DNA from: Propionicimonas sp.
GTDB taxonomy: Bacteria > Actinomycetota > Actinomycetes > Propionibacteriales > Propionibacteriaceae
DNA length: 64,000 nt
NCBI RefSeq assembly: GCF_034927565.1
Contig: NZ_JAYFPT010000012.1
Span: 9,933 to 73,932, forward strand
Direction: 5' to 3'
The notes under the pieces: generated by a model
What the model saw: only the letters and a program-made list of their open reading frames with translations
Databases searched by the model: none
What the model was told of the DNA's origin: nothing
Part shown: positions 10,197 to 54,669 of the stretch, in pieces
Layout: every line of letters starts with the position of its first letter
Position numbering within the stretch: position 1 is the first letter of the stretch
Translations under genes and position numbers: made by a program

Positions 10197-11102
10197 ATGA
10201 CGAGCACTCCCCCGACCCCCGCAGCCCGGCAGTCCCGGCTGCCCGCCTGGCTGCGGGCACTGCGTCCCAAACAGTGGGTGAAGAATGTCCTGGTGGTCGC
10301 CGCGCCCCTGGCCGCCGGACGTCTGTTCGAACCTGCCGTGGCACTGGCCACCCTCTGGGCGATGATCGCATTCTGCCTGGTCAGCGCTGCAATCTACGTC
10401 TTCAACGACATTCGGGACGTGGCAGCCGACCGGCAGCATCCCACCAAACGGCTACGACCGATTGCCGCTGGGGAGCTCTCCCCCCGGATCGGCTACCTGC
10501 TGGCGGCCGTCTGTCTGGCCGCGGGCCTGGCACTGGGGACGTGGACCAGCCCCCAGCTGGGTGTGACGCTGGCGATCTACGTCGTGCTGCAGGTGGCGTA
10601 CTCGCTGTTCTTCAAGCACCAGCCGATCATCGACCTGGCGATGGTGGCGGCCGGTTTTCTGTTGCGCGCGATCGCCGGCGGCGTCGCGTCCGGCATTCCG
10701 CTGAGCCAGTGGTTCCTGCTGGTGGCCTCCTTCGGCTCGCTGTTCATGGTGGCGGGCAAGCGCTACTCCGAGCTGCACCAACTGGGGGCCGAGGCGGGCA
10801 CCCGGCTCTCGCTGGAGCGCTACAGCGATTCCTACCTCCGGCTGGTGTGGTCGGTGGCGCTCGGCGTGGTGATCATGTCGTACAGCCTGTGGGCCTTCGA
10901 CGAGGGCCGCGGCCCGCAGCTGTGGAGCGTGCCGTGGACGGCGATCTCGATCGCCCCGTTCACCCTCGCCCTGCTGCGCTATGCGATGCGAATCGACCAG
11001 GGGAGGGCGGGCGAACCGGAGGAGATCGTGATGAGCGACCGTGTCCTGCAGGTGCTGGCGGTGGTCTGGGTGGCACTGGTCGGGCTGGCGGTGTTCGCAT
11101 GA
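10197..11102 (+). CDS. Decaprenyl-phosphate phosphoribosyltransferase (UbiA family)
   Basis: LRPKQWVKN, Y.FND..D...DRQHP.K..RPIAAG, AGKRYSE, LLRY. Confidence 0.88.
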   Translation: MTSTPPTPAARQSRLPAWLRALRPKQWVKNVLVVAAPLAAGRLFEPAVALATLWAMIAFCLVSAAIYVFNDIRDVAADRQHPTKRLRPIAAGELSPRIGYLLAAVCLAAGLALGTWTSPQLGVTLAIYVVLQVAYSLFFKHQPIIDLAMVAAGFLLRAIAGGVASGIPLSQWFLLVASFGSLFMVAGKRYSELHQLGAEAGTRLSLERYSDSYLRLVWSVALGVVIMSYSLWAFDEGRGPQLWSVPWTAISIAPFTLALLRYAMRIDQGRAGEPEEIVMSDRVLQVLAVVWVALVGLAVFA

Positions 11103-25983: not shown

Positions 25984-26786
25984 GCGACGACCGGGCGGCG
26001 TCCCCGCCGATCGTGGTGGGTGCGTCCCCGGTGGTCGAGCCCGGCGACGCCACCGCACCCCCGCTCGAGTGCGACACCACCCCGCCGACGCCCGAGTTCG
26101 ACGCCACCCCGCGGGTGAAGCCCGAGACCTCCCCGCCGGCGCAGCTCGGCAACACCACCGCACCCCCGCTCGAGCCCGTCGGGGCCAGCGGCCGGCCCGC
26201 CTGGTCCGCTGCGCCCCGGCTCGTCCTAGTCGCCGGGGCCTCCGGCAGCGGCAAGTCCCGGCTGGCCCGGCACTCTGCCTGTCTGCAGTTCCGGCTGGAC
26301 GACTTCTACTACGACGCCGACTACCCCGGGCATGTCATGACGGCCTACGGGATCATCGACTGGGACGACCCGGCAGCCTGGAACGCCGCCGCGGCGGTCG
26401 AAGCCCTGCGCACCCTGATCGACCGCGGCGAGGTGGAGGTGCCGGTCTATTCGATCAGCGAGAGCCGGGCCACCGGCCAGCACACCGTCCGGCTGGACGG
26501 ACGGGGGTGCATCGTCGCCGAAGGTATCTTCGCCATCGAACTACGCGCCCACCTGGAGCGGGCGGGCATGGCGGCTGAGGCGATCTACCTCGACCGTCCC
26601 GGCTGGCTGGTCTTCTGGCTGCGGCTGCGCCGCGACCTCGCGCTCAAACGCAAGCCGCCGCTGGTCCTGTTGCGTCGCGGCTGGGCGCTGTGGCGCGCCC
26701 AACCGGGCCTGAAGCGCAAGGCGGTGGCAGCGGGCTTCCGTCCGCTGTCCATGCGGCGCGCGCTGGCCGTGATCGCTGCCGCCTGA
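25980..26786 (+). CDS. Uridine-kinase-like P-loop protein with a Pro/Thr repeat N-terminus
   Basis: GASGSGKS, LDDFY, DWDDP..WN, EGIFA; GTGA overlap. Confidence 0.75.
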   Translation: MSDDRAASPPIVVGASPVVEPGDATAPPLECDTTPPTPEFDATPRVKPETSPPAQLGNTTAPPLEPVGASGRPAWSAAPRLVLVAGASGSGKSRLARHSACLQFRLDDFYYDADYPGHVMTAYGIIDWDDPAAWNAAAAVEALRTLIDRGEVEVPVYSISESRATGQHTVRLDGRGCIVAEGIFAIELRAHLERAGMAAEAIYLDRPGWLVFWLRLRRDLALKRKPPLVLLRRGWALWRAQPGLKRKAVAAGFRPLSMRRALAVIAAA

Positions 26787-26840
26787 CCTGCGTGCGGTAG
26801 TCCCTCTTGGCTCCGTCCGCCGGCGGTCTCCACTCCGCCC

Positions 26841-26972
26841 TTTCCTGTCACCGAACCCCGGCTCGGTTTCGACGAACTGCGCGCCCTGGTGGACGCGGTG
26901 CTGCCCGACGCAATCACGCGCCATCCGATCGCCTTTCGGCACACCATCAGCTGGACGAAGTCGCCGGCCTGA
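26841..26972 (+). pseudogene. Probable C-terminal remnant of a class I SAM methyltransferase
   Basis: FPVTEPRLGFDELRALVDAVLPDAITRHPIAFRHTISWTKSPA*; no start codon; family resemblance is from memory. Confidence 0.4.
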
Positions 26973-26981
26973 CCGGACACG

Positions 26982-27019
26982 CGACTGCCCCGGTTCCCGC
27001 AGGCGTCCCGGGGCAGTCG
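26982..27019. terminator. Hairpin downstream of the DAACS gene
   Basis: Perfect 12-bp inverted repeat cgactgccccgg/ccggggcagtcg. Confidence 0.65.
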
Positions 27020-27032
27020 TCACGGTTGTCGG

Positions 27033-28397
27033 TCAGATCTTCACACCGTCGAAGACCGGCCTGGCGTTGTAGGTGTCCTCGTCCAGGATGCCCTCGCGCT
27101 TGGCGACGATGGTCGGGACCAGCGCCTGCCCGGTGACGTTGAGCGCGGTGCGTCCCATGTCGAGGATGGAGTCCACCGCCAGCAGCAGGCCGACGCCCTC
27201 CAGCGGCAGGCCCACGGTTGACAAGGTGAGGGTCAGCATCACCGTCGCGCCCGTCGTGCCGGCGGTGGCTGCGGAGCCGAGCACCGACACGAAGGCGATC
27301 AGCAGGTAGTGCGTCAGGTTCAACGGAACACCGTAGAACTGCGCGACGAAGATCGCGGCCACGGCCGGGTAGATCGCGGCGCAGCCGTCCATCTTGGTGG
27401 TGGCACCCAGCGGCACGGCGAAGCTGGCGTAGGAGCGCGGAACGCCCAGATTGCGCTCGGTGACCTCCTGGGTCACCGGCAGCACGCCGATCGACGAGCG
27501 GGTGACGAATCCCAGGGTGATGACCGGCCAGACGTTCTTGTAGAACTGTGCGATCGACAGGCCGTGGAACCGCAGGATGGCCGGGTAGACGATCGCCCAG
27601 ACCAGCACCAGGCCGACGTAGACGGCGACCACGAACACCCCCAGCGAAGCCAGTGAGGCCCAGCCGTAGGTGGCGATCGCCTTGCCGATCAGCGCTGCAG
27701 TGCCGATCGGGGCCAGCCGGATCACCCACCACAGCACCTTCTGGACGACGGCCAGCGCGGACTCGGTGAAACCGATGAAGCCGGCGGCCTTGTCACCCAC
27801 CTTGAGCGCCGCGATGCCAAAGGCAATGGCGAGCACGATGATCTGGAGCACATTGAAATCGGCGCTGGCGGTGAAACCGGTCTCCGCCGAGCCTCGCAGC
27901 CCGACCTGGAGGCCGAGGAAGTTGCTCGGGATCAGGCCGGTGAGAAAGGCGGTCCAGGAGCCGACCCGGCCCGGCGCGTCGGCGGCATCGCCGGACACCC
28001 CGGCGGTGAGCCACGGTCCGGAGACCACGCCGATCAGGATCCCGAGCAGCACTGACGCCGCCGCGGTGATGGCGAACCAGATCAGGGTCTGGACGGCGAG
28101 CCGGGCGGCATTGGTCACCTCGCGGAGGCGGGCGATCGAACTGATCACCGCGGTGAAGATCAGCGGGACGACCAGCAGGCGCAGCAGGCCGACGTAGGCA
28201 CTGCCGATCTCGCCGAGCGTCGCGGTGAGCCAGTTGGGCTGGCCATCGACCTGACCGAGCGCAGCGGCGGTGAAACCGAGCGCGACGCCGACGATCAAGC
28301 CGATGACGATCTGGACGCTGAATTTCGACAGCGGATTGGTGGATCTCGGCTTCTGGGTCAGGGCCTCGTCAGCGCTGACCTGCGGGGATGCAGACAT
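27033..28397 (-). CDS. Dicarboxylate/amino acid:cation symporter, probably cystine/cysteine uptake
   Basis: LLVVPLIF, IRLAPIG, TRSSIGVLPV, PLGATTKMDG, DSILDMGRTALNVTG; substrate inferred from the Cys-rich leader. Confidence 0.9.
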   Translation of the reverse strand: MSASPQVSADEALTQKPRSTNPLSKFSVQIVIGLIVGVALGFTAAALGQVDGQPNWLTATLGEIGSAYVGLLRLLVVPLIFTAVISSIARLREVTNAARLAVQTLIWFAITAAASVLLGILIGVVSGPWLTAGVSGDAADAPGRVGSWTAFLTGLIPSNFLGLQVGLRGSAETGFTASADFNVLQIIVLAIAFGIAALKVGDKAAGFIGFTESALAVVQKVLWWVIRLAPIGTAALIGKAIATYGWASLASLGVFVVAVYVGLVLVWAIVYPAILRFHGLSIAQFYKNVWPVITLGFVTRSSIGVLPVTQEVTERNLGVPRSYASFAVPLGATTKMDGCAAIYPAVAAIFVAQFYGVPLNLTHYLLIAFVSVLGSAATAGTTGATVMLTLTLSTVGLPLEGVGLLLAVDSILDMGRTALNVTGQALVPTIVAKREGILDEDTYNARPVFDGVKI

Positions 28398-28489
28398 GTG
28401 TGGGTTTCTTCCGTGGGGAGGGTTGACCAGAAACAGGCCTGAAGCGGCCCTGGTCTGGTCGAGGGAGGTGCCCTTGTGGACGGCGGGCG

Positions 28490-28526
28490 AAAAAAGCGGT
28501 CCGGTGTCTCAGAGTCGACAGGCCGC
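28490..28526 (-). terminator. Intrinsic terminator/attenuator overlapping the leader peptide 3' end
   Basis: Minus strand gcggcc-tgtc-gactctga-gaca-ccggaccgc followed by six T. Confidence 0.65.
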
Positions 28527-28580
28527 GGAACACAGACGGCACAGAGCAGCCCAGGGGCGGGCCACGAGCGTCGCGTTCAT
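28509..28580 (-). CDS. Cys-rich leader peptide MNATLVARPWAALCRLCSAACRL (23 aa)
   Basis: ATG...TGA read directly; three Cys in the C-terminal half; 111 bp upstream of the transporter; absent from the ORF track. Confidence 0.75.
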   Translation of the reverse strand: MNATLVARPWAALCRLCSAACRL

Positions 28581-28715
28581 GGCCGGTATTTCAACACCGA
28601 CCTCACAGTGGGCGCAACCCCGTCCAGCCCATGGACAGCCGGCAAGGCACTTCACCCCGCCCCGCCGCCCTCGCGCGGCGGACAATTCCTCGCCACAGCC
28701 GTCCTACCCCAACCA

Positions 28716-28841
28716 CAAGCTGTGGCTGGGCTTCCGACTTCGGGTGGTGGGTCACAGCCTGCTGGCGAAGCGCCACTGGCCGGGCTCAGGCGCCCCACGC
28801 TGTGACTGGGATTCCGACCTCGGAGTGCGTGCCACAACCTG
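28716..28841. repeat. Two 46-bp imperfect palindromes, 80-bp period (left array)
   Basis: caagctgtggctgggcttccg-actt-cgggtggtgggtcacagcctg (28716-28761); cacgctgtgactgggattccg-acct-cggagtgcgtgccacaacctg (28796-28841). Confidence 0.85.
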
Positions 28842-28871
28842 AACACCGCCGGGCAGACGTGGACGGCACCG

Positions 28872-29795
28872 TCAAACAGCGATGACCGTCCGGCAACGCG
28901 GACAGGGCAGGACCGGGCCGGGCCAACCGCGGCTCTCCAGCAGGAATCCCACCTGCCTGGCGACCTCGCAGAACCGCCCGCGGACGTCGACACTGCCATA
29001 GCGAAGGGTCGGGCTGCCGGACAGCAGGTGGAGATTGTCCCGATTCATGTCGCGAAACGCGGAACCGGCGTCCTGGTGTCCGAGTCGACCATCCAGCTCG
29101 ACCAGAACCCCGTACTCGTCATAGACCACATCAGTTCGCGTCCCCGCCGAGACCGACACGTTGCGGCGACCGACCGGCAATCCGTGGGCACGCTCGACGT
29201 CGCGCCGATAGGCGTACTCCAGCGTGCTCTCGATCCCGTCCAGATCGCCGAGCAGTTCCTCGAAGCGTCGTCGTCCCCGAACTCGGTGCCGATCCCGGAC
29301 GGCTGCCTCGACCTGATCCAGTCGGGCCACGCGGCTACGTGCTGCATCAGCGAGCAGCGCAACCAACTTCTCCGTCGACAGGTACTGGCCGACGTCGATG
29401 ATCGCATCCTCAGGGGGGATCCGGGTCAGCAGCCCGCGGGCCCGCGCCGTCCGTCCGAGGAAGTCCCGGCGCATGGCGACCCCGTTGAGGGACGCTGGCT
29501 GGTTGATCGGAGGTACCCAGACTTCGATCTGGTCGACGCGGCGGTTCAGCCCGTGGAGCAGCAGCGCGGCCTCGCCGCCAATCGCGGCACCGTCGCCTCC
29601 GGCCAGCAGGCCGATCCAGGCCTGCTTCTCGAAGCCGTCGACCAGCGGAGCGGCGTCGAACAGCCCCCGGGTGATTCGCGTCCAGTGGCCTTGCCCGACC
29701 AGCCGAGACTGGGCTCGCGTACCCAGGCCGTGCGCTGTCGCCTGGTCGGATCTGATCACGCCGCGCTGGGCGGCTATGAGTGCACGCAGTTCCAT
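28872..29795 (-). CDS. AbiEi-type N-terminal domain + DUF559/Vsr-like PD-(D/E)XK nuclease domain protein
   Basis: N-terminal AQRGVI..Q....G...G.W.RI.RG.F; C-terminal ES.LE, R.DVVY, VELDG..GH, RD..RDN; start could be 29820. Confidence 0.8.
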   Translation of the reverse strand: MELRALIAAQRGVIRSDQATAHGLGTRAQSRLVGQGHWTRITRGLFDAAPLVDGFEKQAWIGLLAGGDGAAIGGEAALLLHGLNRRVDQIEVWVPPINQPASLNGVAMRRDFLGRTARARGLLTRIPPEDAIIDVGQYLSTEKLVALLADAARSRVARLDQVEAAVRDRHRVRGRRRFEELLGDLDGIESTLEYAYRRDVERAHGLPVGRRNVSVSAGTRTDVVYDEYGVLVELDGRLGHQDAGSAFRDMNRDNLHLLSGSPTLRYGSVDVRGRFCEVARQVGFLLESRGWPGPVLPCPRCRTVIAV

Positions 29796-29871
29796 CGTGA
29801 TGTCTTGTCGGTGATACATGCCGACATTGTTGGTTCGATGACCACCCGGCGTGCCAACGAATTGCTGTGGC

Positions 29872-29898
29872 TGTGGACAACCTCCGTCGTTATCCACA
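29872..29898. promoter_or_regulatory. Inverted pair of DnaA-box sequences
   Basis: tgtggacaa (reverse complement TTGTCCACA) at 29872-29880 and TTATCCACA at 29890-29898. Confidence 0.55.
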
Positions 29899-29919
29899 AC
29901 CAGAATTTGATGGTCACAC

Positions 29920-30161
29920 CCGGCTGCGGTTCACCGTCCGACATCGGGAGTTCGGCCACAGCGTGCGTGGGAGGCCCGCGCGGGCGCAATCCCGTCGTCA
30001 GGTCGGCCGCCACCCAGCGGCACGGTCACGTCGGCCACGCTGTGACTCAGCGTCCAAGGACGGAAGCCCACTCACAGCTTGCGCGGCGAACAGCGGGACC
30101 GGCAGATCCGGCCTGCAGGCTGCGGGGAAGAGACCGTGGACGGAAGCTCAGCCACAGCTTG
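29920..30161. repeat. Three 46-bp imperfect palindromes (right array)
   Basis: Units at 29920-29965, 30036-30081 and 30116-30161; conserved arm cggaagcycasycacagcktg, opposite orientation to the left array. Confidence 0.85.
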
Positions 30162-30192
30162 GGGACGGCGGCGGTGGGATTCGAGCCTGAGA

Positions 30193-53451: not shown

Positions 53452-53681
53452 CCGAAGTCCACCGACCGCGCGGGGTCGGTTCGCTCGGGAATGGGAAGGC
53501 CGTCAATCCCGCCGAACTCGCGCGCCGCGTCCAGCAGGGCCAGGCCGATATGGGGCCGGCGGGTGGCCCTGGTCAGAATCTCGCGGGCCTCCGCCTCCAT
53601 CGACCTGCCGTTCTGGGCGGCCTGCGCCACCAACTGCGCCTTCACCGATTCGTCGAGCCCGCGGACCACGATGGATGCCAT
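53448..53681 (-). CDS. FitA-like ribbon-helix-helix antitoxin
   Basis: MASIVVRGLD, A..NGRSMEAE.R.IL; overlaps the vapC start. Confidence 0.88.
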   Translation of the reverse strand: MASIVVRGLDESVKAQLVAQAAQNGRSMEAEAREILTRATRRPHIGLALLDAAREFGGIDGLPIPERTDPARSVDFG

Positions 53682-54444: not shown

Positions 54445-54660
54445 CCACGGATGGATGAGCGGCACCCCCATGGCGGCTAGGTCCGCCACACTACGGGTGG
54501 CGAGGGTCAGTCCATGAACCATGGCGGTGGCGGCGATGGAAGCGTCCTGAACCGGCCGGGGAGCGGGGACGTGCAGCCGAGCGGCCTGGCGTGCCACCGC
54601 AGGACTGACCGGCAGCGCTGGCAGCACACGCCCCAAACCTCGTAGCCAGGGCGTCGACAC
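54445..54660 (-). pseudogene. Truncated second vapC (C-terminal half only)
   Basis: QDASIAATAMVHGLTLATRSVADL...HPW; no N-terminal DTN motif and no normal stop. Confidence 0.7.
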
Positions 54661-54669
54661 TGAATGCGC

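What the first reader, a model, noticed from the sequence alone, without database searches (positions are those of the whole stretch)
28716..30161. Stand-alone AbiEi/DUF559-like nuclease gene embedded in arrays of 46-bp palindromes: candidate REPIN-like system driven by a non-RAYT enzyme
Seen: five copies of a 46-bp imperfect palindrome (21-bp arm, 4 nt, 21-bp arm; conserved arm CGGAAKCYCASYCACAGCKTG) at 28716, 28796, 29920, 30036 and 30116. Two lie left and three right of a single gene, the arrays are inverted relative to each other, and the period is 80 bp on both sides. The gene sits between two facing arms, where a 34-bp spacer would otherwise be. There is no AbiEii toxin, transposase or integrase nearby. 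Known: in Proteobacteria, REP/REPIN arrays flank RAYT HUH transposases that propagate them. Inference: this is the same architecture with a DNA-binding + PD-(D/E)XK protein replacing RAYT, so the protein may recognise and spread or maintain these repeats rather than act as an antitoxin.
Basis: partly seen in the sequence, partly recalled or inferred. Interest (0 to 1): 0.82.

Follow-up and report, generated by a model that had tools for sequence, protein, structure and literature searches.

The report
AbiEi-nuclease gene bracketed by cognate palindromes
A chromosomal gene that fuses an AbiEi-type DNA-binding antitoxin to a Vsr-like nuclease is bracketed by its own 46-bp palindromes. Most relatives share this layout, each with a different palindrome, so the repeats look like the protein's private binding sites rather than a spreading REP-like family.

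Summary
Five 46-nt imperfect palindromes flank one gene on the minus strand (28872-29819), and there is no other copy in the 64 kb window.

The protein is a complete AbiEi module (wHTH plus C-terminal domain) fused to a Vsr/DUF559-type nuclease. There is no AbiEii, transposase or integrase nearby.

New evidence from related loci:
- In 36 of 66 homologous loci, a locus-specific palindrome lies both upstream of the gene and at its stop codon.
- The median palindrome is 46 bp, with 20-bp arms and a 4-bp spacer. This is the geometry of the experimentally defined AbiEi operator (23-3-23).
- At orthologous sites the palindromes differ with the cassette allele, and all half-sites change together.
- The closest relatives have an empty site, about 25 nt with no palindrome, so the repeats belong to the cassette.
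- No dispersed copies were found, no homolog occurs in 72,556 plasmids, and synteny at metG is long-standing. The REPIN-like spreading idea is therefore not supported.

Best reading: the palindromes are cognate AbiEi-type operator sites that enclose a tightly controlled, toxin-antitoxin- or defence-like nuclease cassette in an accessory hot spot.

A mobile-cassette reading remains possible, at roughly one in five.

This is a new variant of a known kind. I found no description of it in the literature I searched.

The parts
28716..28761 (.). Palindrome copy 1. It lies downstream of the gene and is the outermost copy; the conserved arm CGGAAGCCCAGCCACAGCTTG is on the minus strand.
28796..28841 (.). 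Palindrome copy 2. It lies downstream of the gene, ending 31 nt from the stop codon; the conserved arm is on the minus strand.
28872..29819 (-). Gene for a 315-aa AbiEi-Vsr/DUF559 fusion protein. The start is ATG at 29819 (MYHRQ..., matching the family consensus MHxRQ); the stop codon is 28872-28874.
   Evidence: AF2 model pLDDT 88, pTM 0.81
29250..29819 (-). Coding region for the AbiEi module (wHTH plus AbiEi C-terminal domain, residues about 1-190).
   Evidence: Pfam AbiEi_4 E=8e-7; PADLOC AbiEi HMM over residues 9-181, E=1e-14; Foldseek hits to 6y8q and 1zel
28875..29237 (-). Coding region for the Vsr/DUF559-type PD-(D/E)XK nuclease domain plus a C-terminal CxxC (residues about 195-315).
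   Evidence: Foldseek 3hrl TMt 0.80, 3r3p TMt 0.75, 1cw0; invariant D230, E241, D243, H248, R256, D257, R260, D261, N262
29871..29899 (-). Promoter-proximal inverted pair of TT(G/A)TCCACA(G) boxes. On the gene strand it reads TTGTGGATAA-N9-TTGTCCACAG, with the proximal box 58 nt before the start codon.
   Evidence: The motif is present in 48 of 70 homolog upstream regions against 3.5% of control windows, with its position peaking at -57.
29920..29965 (.). Palindrome copy 3. It lies upstream of the gene, is the innermost copy and is the most degenerate.
30036..30081 (.). Palindrome copy 4, upstream of the gene.
30116..30161 (.). Palindrome copy 5. It lies upstream and is the outermost copy, 31 nt from the metG stop codon.
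26768..30181 (.). Segment absent from the nearest relative (L112), where about 25 nt join metG to the convergent 241-aa gene. It holds a methyltransferase remnant, the SDF transporter gene, and the nuclease cassette with all five palindromes.

Best explanation
The gene encodes a single-chain AbiEi-nuclease. A full AbiEi-type DNA-binding module (wHTH plus AbiEi C-terminal domain) is fused to a Vsr/DUF559 PD-(D/E)XK nuclease that keeps its catalytic residues.

The 46-bp palindromes are its cognate AbiEi-type operator sites: two half-sites of about 21 bp, 4 bp apart, each presumably bound by one wHTH. They sit on both flanks of the gene, here amplified to 3 + 2 copies. Together with two conserved TT(G/A)TCCACAG boxes at the promoter, they make a self-contained cassette. 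In that cassette the protein is tethered to its own locus and represses it, possibly by looping. The GC-rich palindromes probably also insulate the gene from transcription coming in or going out.

The cassette is an accessory, fast-evolving, toxin-antitoxin- or defence-like module sitting in a hot spot 3' of metG. It is inherited mostly vertically and is occasionally lost or rearranged. It is not a repeat-spreading system.

Shown: the architecture, the domain folds, the family-wide flanking pairs, the conserved geometry, co-variation with the cassette allele, empty sites, and the absence of dispersal. Inferred: binding, repression or looping, and what the nuclease cuts.
For: (1) Domains. AbiEi_4 Pfam hit. 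PADLOC AbiEi model over residues 9-181. Foldseek to AbiEi 6y8q and Rv2827c 1zel for the N-terminal ~190 residues, and to DUF559 3hrl, I-Bth0305I 3r3p and Vsr 1cw0 for the C-terminus. Invariant nuclease-motif residues.

(2) Family-wide pairs. 36 of 66 non-redundant homolog loci have matching upstream and downstream repeats above the 99th percentile of a cross-locus control.

(3) Geometry. Median 46 bp, 20-bp arms and 4-bp spacer in 29 loci, despite complete sequence turnover. This matches the AbiEi operator bound in vitro, two 23-bp inverted repeats 3 bp apart (PMC3985639), and the tandem sets of four repeats in Rv2827c (PMC7319586).

(4) Co-variation at orthologous sites.
- L025/L026: a GG>AC change is mirrored in the other arm and in both copies.
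- L062/L048: flanks are 91-95% identical, the wHTH about 40% and the nuclease 63-73%, yet the palindromes are entirely different and are matched within each locus.
- L019/L021: both are at metG and carry different palindromes.

(5) The palindromes belong to the cassette. Empty sites in L112/L113 and L115 carry no palindrome. L003 shows the gene moved with its pair.

(6) Conserved boxes. CAAGCTGTGR and TCCGTCCTCGG are conserved among orthologs whose cassette DNA is only about 66-74% identical.

(7) Toxin-antitoxin-like context. L114 carries RHH/PIN and RHH/PemK modules at the same site.
Against: - No binding or cleavage data exist.
- The family-wide invariant TT(G/A)TCCACAG boxes could be the true operator. 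The palindromes would then need another reader.
- The correlation between palindrome similarity and similarity in the wHTH recognition-helix region is weak (partial rho 0.10).
- Canonical AbiE systems are not known to have sites downstream of the gene.
- About 45% of loci, mostly those below 36% identity, show no detectable pair.
- The orientation of the downstream copy is mixed (22 direct, 13 inverted). A pure operator model does not predict this, though it is not excluded for near-symmetric sites.
- The role of a conserved active nuclease is unexplained.
Confidence: 0.55

Rival explanations
1. Mobile or selfish cassette. The palindromes are the cis-acting ends. The nuclease dimer cuts at or beside them, and the unit [palindrome-gene-palindrome] is excised, inserted or homed into empty alleles. 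One route would be staggered cuts across a palindrome, which would leave the palindrome duplicated.
For: - Clean presence/absence polymorphism at the same site: window 26768-30181 against about 25 nt in L112.
- The palindromes delimit the unit and travel with it (L003 against the window).
- The flanking copies are direct repeats in 22 of 35 scored loci, as an insertion-generated duplication would be.
- Gene order is shuffled and [gene-MTase] is inverted between L004 and L105, with junctions at the arrays.
- The nearest characterised structural relative of the nuclease domain is a homing endonuclease with a ~60-bp footprint on a pseudopalindromic target (PMC3239194).
- Different alleles occupy the same host site.
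Against: - No homolog in 72,556 plasmids, and only one weak hit in 50,697 phage records.
- P0115 sits in a single context in 25 contigs.
- Orthologs stay at metG down to 50-59% protein identity.
- Empty sites carry no palindrome at all, so there is no evident target for a palindrome-specific nuclease.
- No cassette-skipping joints in four metagenomes that hold the L057 element.
- Thirteen loci have exactly inverted rather than direct copies, for example L026 with 52 of 52.
- No target-site duplications were seen outside the palindromes.
Confidence: 0.2
2. The palindromes act only as nucleic-acid hairpins: transcription terminators, insulators or mRNA-stabilising stem-loops on either side of a toxic gene. 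The encoded protein does not recognise them. Copies stay alike through gene conversion.
For: - The downstream copy starts between -17 and +50 nt of the stop codon in most loci.
- The upstream copy often follows directly on the stop codon of a co-directional neighbour.
- Many copies are GC-rich, near-perfect hairpins.
Against: - In L062/L048 the upstream copy lies in a divergent intergenic region, where no terminator is needed.
- The window copies fold poorly (z -0.8 to -2.8 for several), yet they keep one 21-nt arm conserved at the sequence level.
- The conserved 46-bp, 4-nt-spacer geometry and the sequence-specific boxes go beyond what a terminator requires.
- Unit orientation relative to transcription varies.
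- No T-tract terminators were found by the scan at the palindromes.
Confidence: 0.12
3. REPIN-like system. The protein replaces RAYT and spreads or maintains a genome-wide population of these palindromes.
For: - The flanking, mutually inverted arrays around a single nuclease-type gene resemble the REP-RAYT-REP layout.
- One short metagenomic contig type carries a repeat-like match (30040-30084, 6 mismatches) with unrelated flanks.
Against: - Zero copies outside the locus in 64 kb.
- No convincing extra copy within 5 kb either side of the related loci.
- The arm pattern gives only 14 single, taxonomically scattered hits in 596 Gb of genomes, none next to a homolog. I judge this to be chance level, by my own estimate of the number expected for a pattern of this information content in that much sequence.
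- The copies are old and diverged (63-78% identity), unlike an active REPIN population.
- The enzyme has no HUH fold.
Confidence: 0.03

Closest known systems
AbiE type IV toxin-antitoxin/abortive-infection systems (AbiEi-AbiEii of Streptococcus agalactiae; Rv2827c-Rv2826c of M. tuberculosis)
   Same: - The N-terminal ~190 residues have the two-domain AbiEi fold.
- AbiEi proteins bind pairs of 23-bp inverted repeats 3 bp (or 13 bp) apart, sometimes in tandem sets of four, and autorepress (PMC3985639, PMC7319586).
- The palindromes here have that geometry: 21-4-21 in the window and a family median of 20-4-20.
   Different: - There is no AbiEii/DUF1814 nucleotidyltransferase partner. A Vsr-like nuclease is fused in cis instead.
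- Operator-like sites lie on both sides of the gene, and in arrays outside the promoter.
- An extra invariant TT(G/A)TCCACAG promoter box is present.
REP/REPIN-RAYT systems of Proteobacteria
   Same: A single gene for a DNA-cleaving enzyme is bracketed by short imperfect palindromes in mutually inverted arrays.
   Different: - RAYT is an HUH Y1 transposase; this protein is wHTH plus PD-(D/E)XK.
- REPs are dispersed in tens to hundreds of copies per genome. These repeats are confined to the gene's flanks.
- Each locus has its own sequence.
EDxHD/Vsr-like homing endonucleases (I-Bth0305I)
   Same: - A Vsr-fold catalytic domain follows a separate DNA-binding region (Foldseek 3r3p TMt 0.75).
- I-Bth0305I is a homodimer with a ~60-bp footprint on a pseudopalindromic target (PMC3239194).
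   Different: - I-Bth0305I lives in a group I intron in a phage recA gene. This gene is free-standing, chromosomal and absent from phage and plasmid collections.
- The DNA-binding part here is AbiEi.
- No homing target is visible in the empty sites.
DUF559 / Vsr clade of PD-(D/E)XK nucleases (NGO0050 3HRL, E. coli Vsr 1CW0)
   Same: The fold and the conserved (V)ELDG..H...D..RD motif pattern. The match to the DUF559 signature rests on my own knowledge of that family.
   Different: - Vsr is a stand-alone mismatch-repair nickase tied to Dcm methylation.
- Most DUF559 proteins are uncharacterised.
- None is reported with cognate flanking palindromes in the literature I searched.

Membership tests
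AbiE type IV TA system | AbiEi antitoxin: N-terminal wHTH plus AbiEi C-terminal domain | tested here: met
   Pfam AbiEi_4 (32 of 34 family members). PADLOC AbiEi over residues 9-181, E=1e-14. Foldseek 6y8q_D TMt 0.61 and 1zel.
AbiE type IV TA system | Adjacent AbiEii/DUF1814 nucleotidyltransferase toxin gene | tested here: not met
   The neighbours are SDF, metG, PHO4, PGM, PNP and similar genes. The same holds in related loci.
AbiE type IV TA system | Paired inverted repeats of about 23 bp at the promoter, bound by AbiEi for autorepression | tested here: inconclusive
   The geometry matches (21-4-21; family median 20-4-20; against PMC3985639 and PMC7319586). Binding cannot be tested with these tools, and the sites also lie downstream of the gene.
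REP/RAYT (REPIN) system | HUH Y1 (RAYT) transposase | tested here: not met
   No such Pfam or fold match. The folds are AbiEi and Vsr-like.
REP/RAYT (REPIN) system | Palindromic repeats flanking the enzyme gene in inverted orientation | tested here: met
REP/RAYT (REPIN) system | Many dispersed copies of the repeat across the genome | tested here: not met
   No copy lies outside the locus in the 64 kb window or within 5 kb either side of the related loci. The GTDB-wide pattern scan gave only scattered single hits. Caveat: the complete source genome was not available.
Vsr/DUF559 clade of PD-(D/E)XK nucleases | Vsr-like restriction-endonuclease fold | tested here: met
   Foldseek 3hrl TMt 0.80, 3r3p TMt 0.74-0.75, 1cw0, from a model with pLDDT 88. 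PF04480 is on record for P0067 and P0096 and matches 1 of 34 members.
Vsr/DUF559 clade of PD-(D/E)XK nucleases | Conserved acidic and His catalytic residues | tested here: met
   D230, E241, D243 and H248 are invariant in 34 sequences down to 46% identity. Assigning them to the catalytic motif rests on my knowledge of the DUF559 signature, not on a residue-level structural superposition.
EDxHD homing endonucleases | Residence in a self-splicing intron or intein (or a phage free-standing HEG), with a cleavable cognate empty allele | tested here: not met
   The gene is free-standing and chromosomal. There is one weak phage hit only. Empty alleles hold about 25 nt with no palindrome. Cleavage itself is not testable here.
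Insertion sequence / transposon | Near-identical copies in several genomic contexts, and presence on plasmids | tested here: not met
   P0115 sits in one context in 25 contigs. No plasmid hit. There is a single copy in the window.
Insertion sequence / transposon | Terminal repeats that bound the inserted unit, and target-site duplication | tested here: inconclusive
   The repeats do bound the unit. No short duplication was seen outside them. The repeats are direct in 22 loci and inverted in 13.

The most novel reading that the evidence does not exclude
The palindromes may be more than operators. They could be the working substrate of the fused nuclease.

(a) The dimer could nick at the outer borders of a palindrome. 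This would give ~45-nt cohesive ends that let the cassette cut and paste, or home, with duplication of the palindrome. It would be a transposase-free mobile gene.

(b) The flanking sites could act as a DNA 'antitoxin' that sequesters the nuclease. Loss of the locus would then free the nuclease to kill the cell, a protein-DNA addiction module.

Either would be a mechanism not described for AbiE or for Vsr-like enzymes.
Probability: 0.17. Interest if true: 0.85.

Novelty: new variant of a known kind. Interest (0 to 1): 0.62.

Why it matters
AbiEi-DUF559 fusions form a large and very diverse actinobacterial family: 3,242 clusters at 50% identity with E<=1e-3, and 208 with E<=1e-30. They are routinely annotated as 'AbiEi antitoxin' or 'very short patch repair endonuclease', and no function is known.

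More than half of the loci examined carry a private pair of 46-bp palindromes with AbiEi-operator geometry. That gives the family a concrete, testable DNA partner.

It also offers dozens of naturally matched protein/site pairs for studying how wHTH specificity evolves.

It raises the question of what a site-tethered nuclease does: defence, addiction or mobility.

Finally, it shows that a RAYT-like layout of repeats around a gene does not by itself imply a REPIN-type spreading system.

Tried and rejected
- Rfam scan of the window: no match. tRNA scan: none.
- NCBIfam: no family.
- PDB sequence searches: only weak wHTH hits.
- GTDB-wide scan for the arm: 14 scattered singletons, none near a homolog. 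The source genome is evidently not among the representatives, so genome-wide copy number could not be measured.
- Metagenome contigs laid on the locus: the strain is present in groundwater runs, but nothing indicates multi-copy repeats. One repeat-only contig type is unexplained.
- Metatranscriptomes from the same study: only two metG fragments, nothing on the cassette.
- Search for cassette-less joints for the L057 element in four wastewater runs: none. The raw-read run had only 12 reads.
- Host-terminator-duplication idea: rejected at the metG site, because the empty sites have no palindrome.
- Recent horizontal transfer of the SDF gene as an explanation for the gene-order changes: not needed. 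SDF region DNA identity is 87% against 78-85% for the flanking housekeeping genes.
- Correlation of palindrome similarity with recognition-helix similarity: significant but weak, and confounded by phylogeny.
- Sigma-70 promoter and T-tract terminator scans: nothing useful at the repeats.
- Literature searches for DUF559, AbiEi_4, and Vsr-like nucleases with flanking palindromes: no prior description found.
Full report
OBSERVATION

The five 46-nt units are real and lie at the stated coordinates: 28716, 28796, 29920, 30036 and 30116. It gives 6 matches, against 0.07 expected, and none of 100 shuffles reaches 6.

The conserved arm is on the minus strand in the two left units and on the plus strand in the right units, so the two arrays are mutually inverted. 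Spacings are 80 on the left and 116 then 80 on the right.

The palindromes are imperfect. The outer CA(A/G)GCTGTG / CACAGC(T/G)TG boxes pair and the inner CCG-N4-CGG pairs, but the middle does not. One arm is much better conserved than the other. Rfam and tRNA scans are empty.

A 99%-identical strain (L001) keeps all five units.

THE GENE

The ORF on the minus strand starts most plausibly at 29819 (MYHRQ...), giving 315 aa. This start fits the family consensus and the fixed distance to a conserved promoter box.

Pfam sees only AbiEi_4. A PADLOC AbiEi model covers residues 9-181.

An AlphaFold model (pLDDT 88, pTM 0.81) matches three kinds of structure:
- The whole two-domain AbiEi antitoxin (6y8q) and Rv2827c (1zel), over the first ~190 residues.
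- The DUF559 protein 3hrl (TMt 0.80) and the I-Bth0305I catalytic domain 3r3p (TMt 0.75), over the C-terminus.
- Vsr 1cw0, also over the C-terminus.

D230, E241, D243, H248 and an FRD..RDN.H block are invariant across 34 homologs. From my knowledge of the DUF559 signature, these residues match it.

So the protein is a full AbiEi module fused to a Vsr-type nuclease, not a bare wHTH plus nuclease.

Neighbours within about 9 kb are ROK, Pyr_redox, PNP_UDP, PGM, SDF, metG, PHO4 and a pullulanase. There is no AbiEii, transposase or integrase.

RELATIVES

The family is large. There are 1,947 hits among the scored candidates, and 3,242 clusters at 50% identity, nearly all with the same ~310-aa architecture. 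Named hits are Propionicimonas, Propionibacteriaceae and other Actinomycetes. None is found on 72,556 plasmids, and there is one weak hit among 50,697 phage records.

I fetched 80 metagenomic loci plus contexts for nine named homologs.

In 66 non-redundant loci with enough flank, I took the best ungapped match between the region upstream of the gene and the region at or after its stop codon. That match exceeds the 99th percentile of a cross-locus control in 36 loci. Visual inspection shows weaker pairs in several more.

- The repeat sequence is different in almost every locus.
- The upstream copy ends 37-170 nt before the start codon.
- The downstream copy begins within -17 to +50 nt of the stop codon.
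- Apart from scattered matches at the lax 62-67% identity threshold, mostly for short or low-complexity seeds, no further copy occurs within 5 kb either side.

Arrays of 2-3 units per side occur only in the window's own clade and in L023.

In 29 clearly palindromic cases the median geometry is 46 bp: 20-bp arms and a 4-bp spacer.

COMPARISON WITH KNOWN AbiEi OPERATORS

S. agalactiae AbiEi binds two 23-bp inverted repeats separated by 3 bp. The perfect part is an outer 11-mer, N27, then an 11-mer (PMC3985639). Rv2827c binds four such repeats in tandem pairs, with graded affinities (PMC7319586).

The window units (21-4-21, outer 10-bp boxes 26 nt apart, one strong and one weak arm, several units in tandem) reproduce this design. 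The family keeps the geometry while the sequence turns over completely. This is my main reason to read the palindromes as cognate AbiEi-type binding sites.

CO-VARIATION

Three pairs of loci sit at orthologous host sites.
- L025/L026. The flank protein is 88% identical and the cassette proteins 64%. The arms differ by GG>AC, mirrored by CC>GT in the opposite arm, in both the upstream and downstream copies. That is four half-sites changing together.
- L062/L048. Flanks are 91-95% identical. Overall the proteins are 58% identical, with the wHTH region about 40% and the nuclease 63-73%. The palindromes are unrelated between the two loci, yet each is matched upstream and downstream within its own locus.
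- L019/L021. Both lie at metG, the proteins are 50% identical, and the palindromes differ.

Across all loci, palindrome similarity tracks protein identity only weakly (Spearman 0.21). Its partial correlation with the recognition-helix region is 0.10. I count that test as inconclusive.

THE PALINDROMES BELONG TO THE CASSETTE

The window's orthologs (59-77% identity) sit next to metG in L003, L004, L019, L105, L108 and L109. L110 keeps the same downstream neighbour, but its contig ends before any metG.

Genomes with the most similar metG lack the gene:
- L112/L113 (91% identical metG)
- L114 (89%)
- Propionicicella superfundia L115 (84%)

In L112 about 25 nt join metG to the convergent gene, where the window has 3.4 kb (26768-30181). 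No palindrome is present there. So the repeats are not duplicated host terminators.

L114 carries RHH/PIN and RHH/PemK modules at the same spot. The site is therefore an accessory, toxin-antitoxin-type hot spot.

Cassette DNA is 66-74% identical between relatives whose flanking genes are 75-85% identical, so the cassette evolves fast.

Gene order around it is shuffled:
- Window: metG-cassette-SDF.
- L003: metG-SDF-cassette.
- L004 against L105: [cassette-MTase] is inverted.

The junctions lie at the arrays.

AGAINST SPREADING OR MOBILITY

- No dispersed copies were found.
- P0115 sits in one context in 25 contigs.
- There are no plasmid homologs.
- No cassette-less joints occur in four metagenomes.
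- The empty sites offer no palindromic target.

FOR SOME DNA-LEVEL ACTIVITY

- The catalytic residues are conserved.
- The flank copies are direct repeats in 22 loci and inverted in 13.
- There is presence/absence polymorphism at the site.
- Rearrangements occur at the arrays.

A SECOND CIS ELEMENT

TT(G/A)TCCACAG lies 57 +/- 2 nt before the start codon. It is often accompanied by a second box about 30 nt further upstream, either direct or inverted. The motif is present in 48 of 70 loci, against 3.5% of control windows. In the window the boxes are at 29871-29880 and 29890-29899.

The motif does not change while the wHTH recognition helix and the palindromes do. From my own knowledge, it coincides with the actinobacterial DnaA-box consensus. 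It may be a conserved operator core, a promoter element or a host-factor site. This remains open, and it is the main caveat to the operator reading of the palindromes.

VERDICT

The protein-palindrome partnership is real and family-wide. The REPIN analogy fails on dispersal.

Most likely (0.55), the palindromes are cognate AbiEi-type sites enclosing an autoregulated, insulated nuclease cassette of toxin-antitoxin or defence type.

- A mobile or substrate role for the palindromes: about 0.2.
- Hairpin-only function: about 0.12.
- REPIN-like system: about 0.03.

I found no prior description in the searchable literature.

Noticed in passing
window 29871-29880 and 29890-29899; homolog loci at -57 and about -85 from the start codon: An invariant TT(G/A)TCCACAG box, identical to the actinobacterial DnaA-box consensus as I know it, sits at a fixed distance upstream of the gene. 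It is present in 48 of 70 family loci against 3.5% of control windows. It does not vary while the palindromes and the recognition helix do. What binds it is unknown.
   Followed up: partly
L114:6837-7504 and 10310-10850; window 26768-30181: The 3' side of metG is an accessory-gene hot spot. One relative carries RHH/PIN and RHH/PemK toxin-antitoxin modules there, others carry nothing (about 25 nt), and the window carries the nuclease cassette plus an SDF transporter and a methyltransferase remnant.
   Followed up: partly
window 26822-26974: Remnant of a class I SAM methyltransferase gene that is intact in L004 and L105 (224 aa). Only about 54 codons are still recognisable here.
   Followed up: partly
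L003, L004, L105 against window 26.8-30.2 kb: The order and orientation of the cassette, the SDF gene and the methyltransferase differ between related genomes. This includes an inversion of [cassette-MTase] between L004 and L105. The breakpoints lie next to the palindrome arrays.
   Followed up: partly
window 27033-28397 (SDF transporter) against L003:3718-5082: The SDF protein is 95.6% identical between the two genomes, while neighbouring proteins are 69-85% identical. Region DNA identity is 87% against 78-85% for the flanking housekeeping genes. Either the constraint is unusually strong or the gene was exchanged more recently.
   Followed up: no
metagenome runs X2, X5, X13; match to window 30040-30084: Short contigs carry a palindrome-like match (6 mismatches in 45) with unrelated flanks (ATGGTGAGTGGGGTGG... 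/ ...AAGCATTCCGATGC). This may be an orphan copy or part of another organism's cassette.
   Followed up: no
L062 against L048 (orthologous loci): Divergence is mosaic by domain. The upstream palindrome, the promoter and the AbiEi half cannot be aligned at the DNA level. The nuclease half and the flanks are 80-87% identical, which suggests either exchange of the DNA-binding module or very fast evolution of it.
   Followed up: partly
window protein residues C284, C306, C309 (nt about 28893-28970): An invariant Cys plus a C-terminal CPRC motif is conserved across the family. This may be a small zinc-binding element appended to the nuclease domain.
   Followed up: no
window 53454-53681 and 54445-54669: tblastn matches to the RHH antitoxin (38% identity) and the PIN toxin (46%) of L114. 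These are two separate stretches about 0.8 kb apart, and they suggest further toxin-antitoxin-type genes elsewhere in the window.
   Followed up: no
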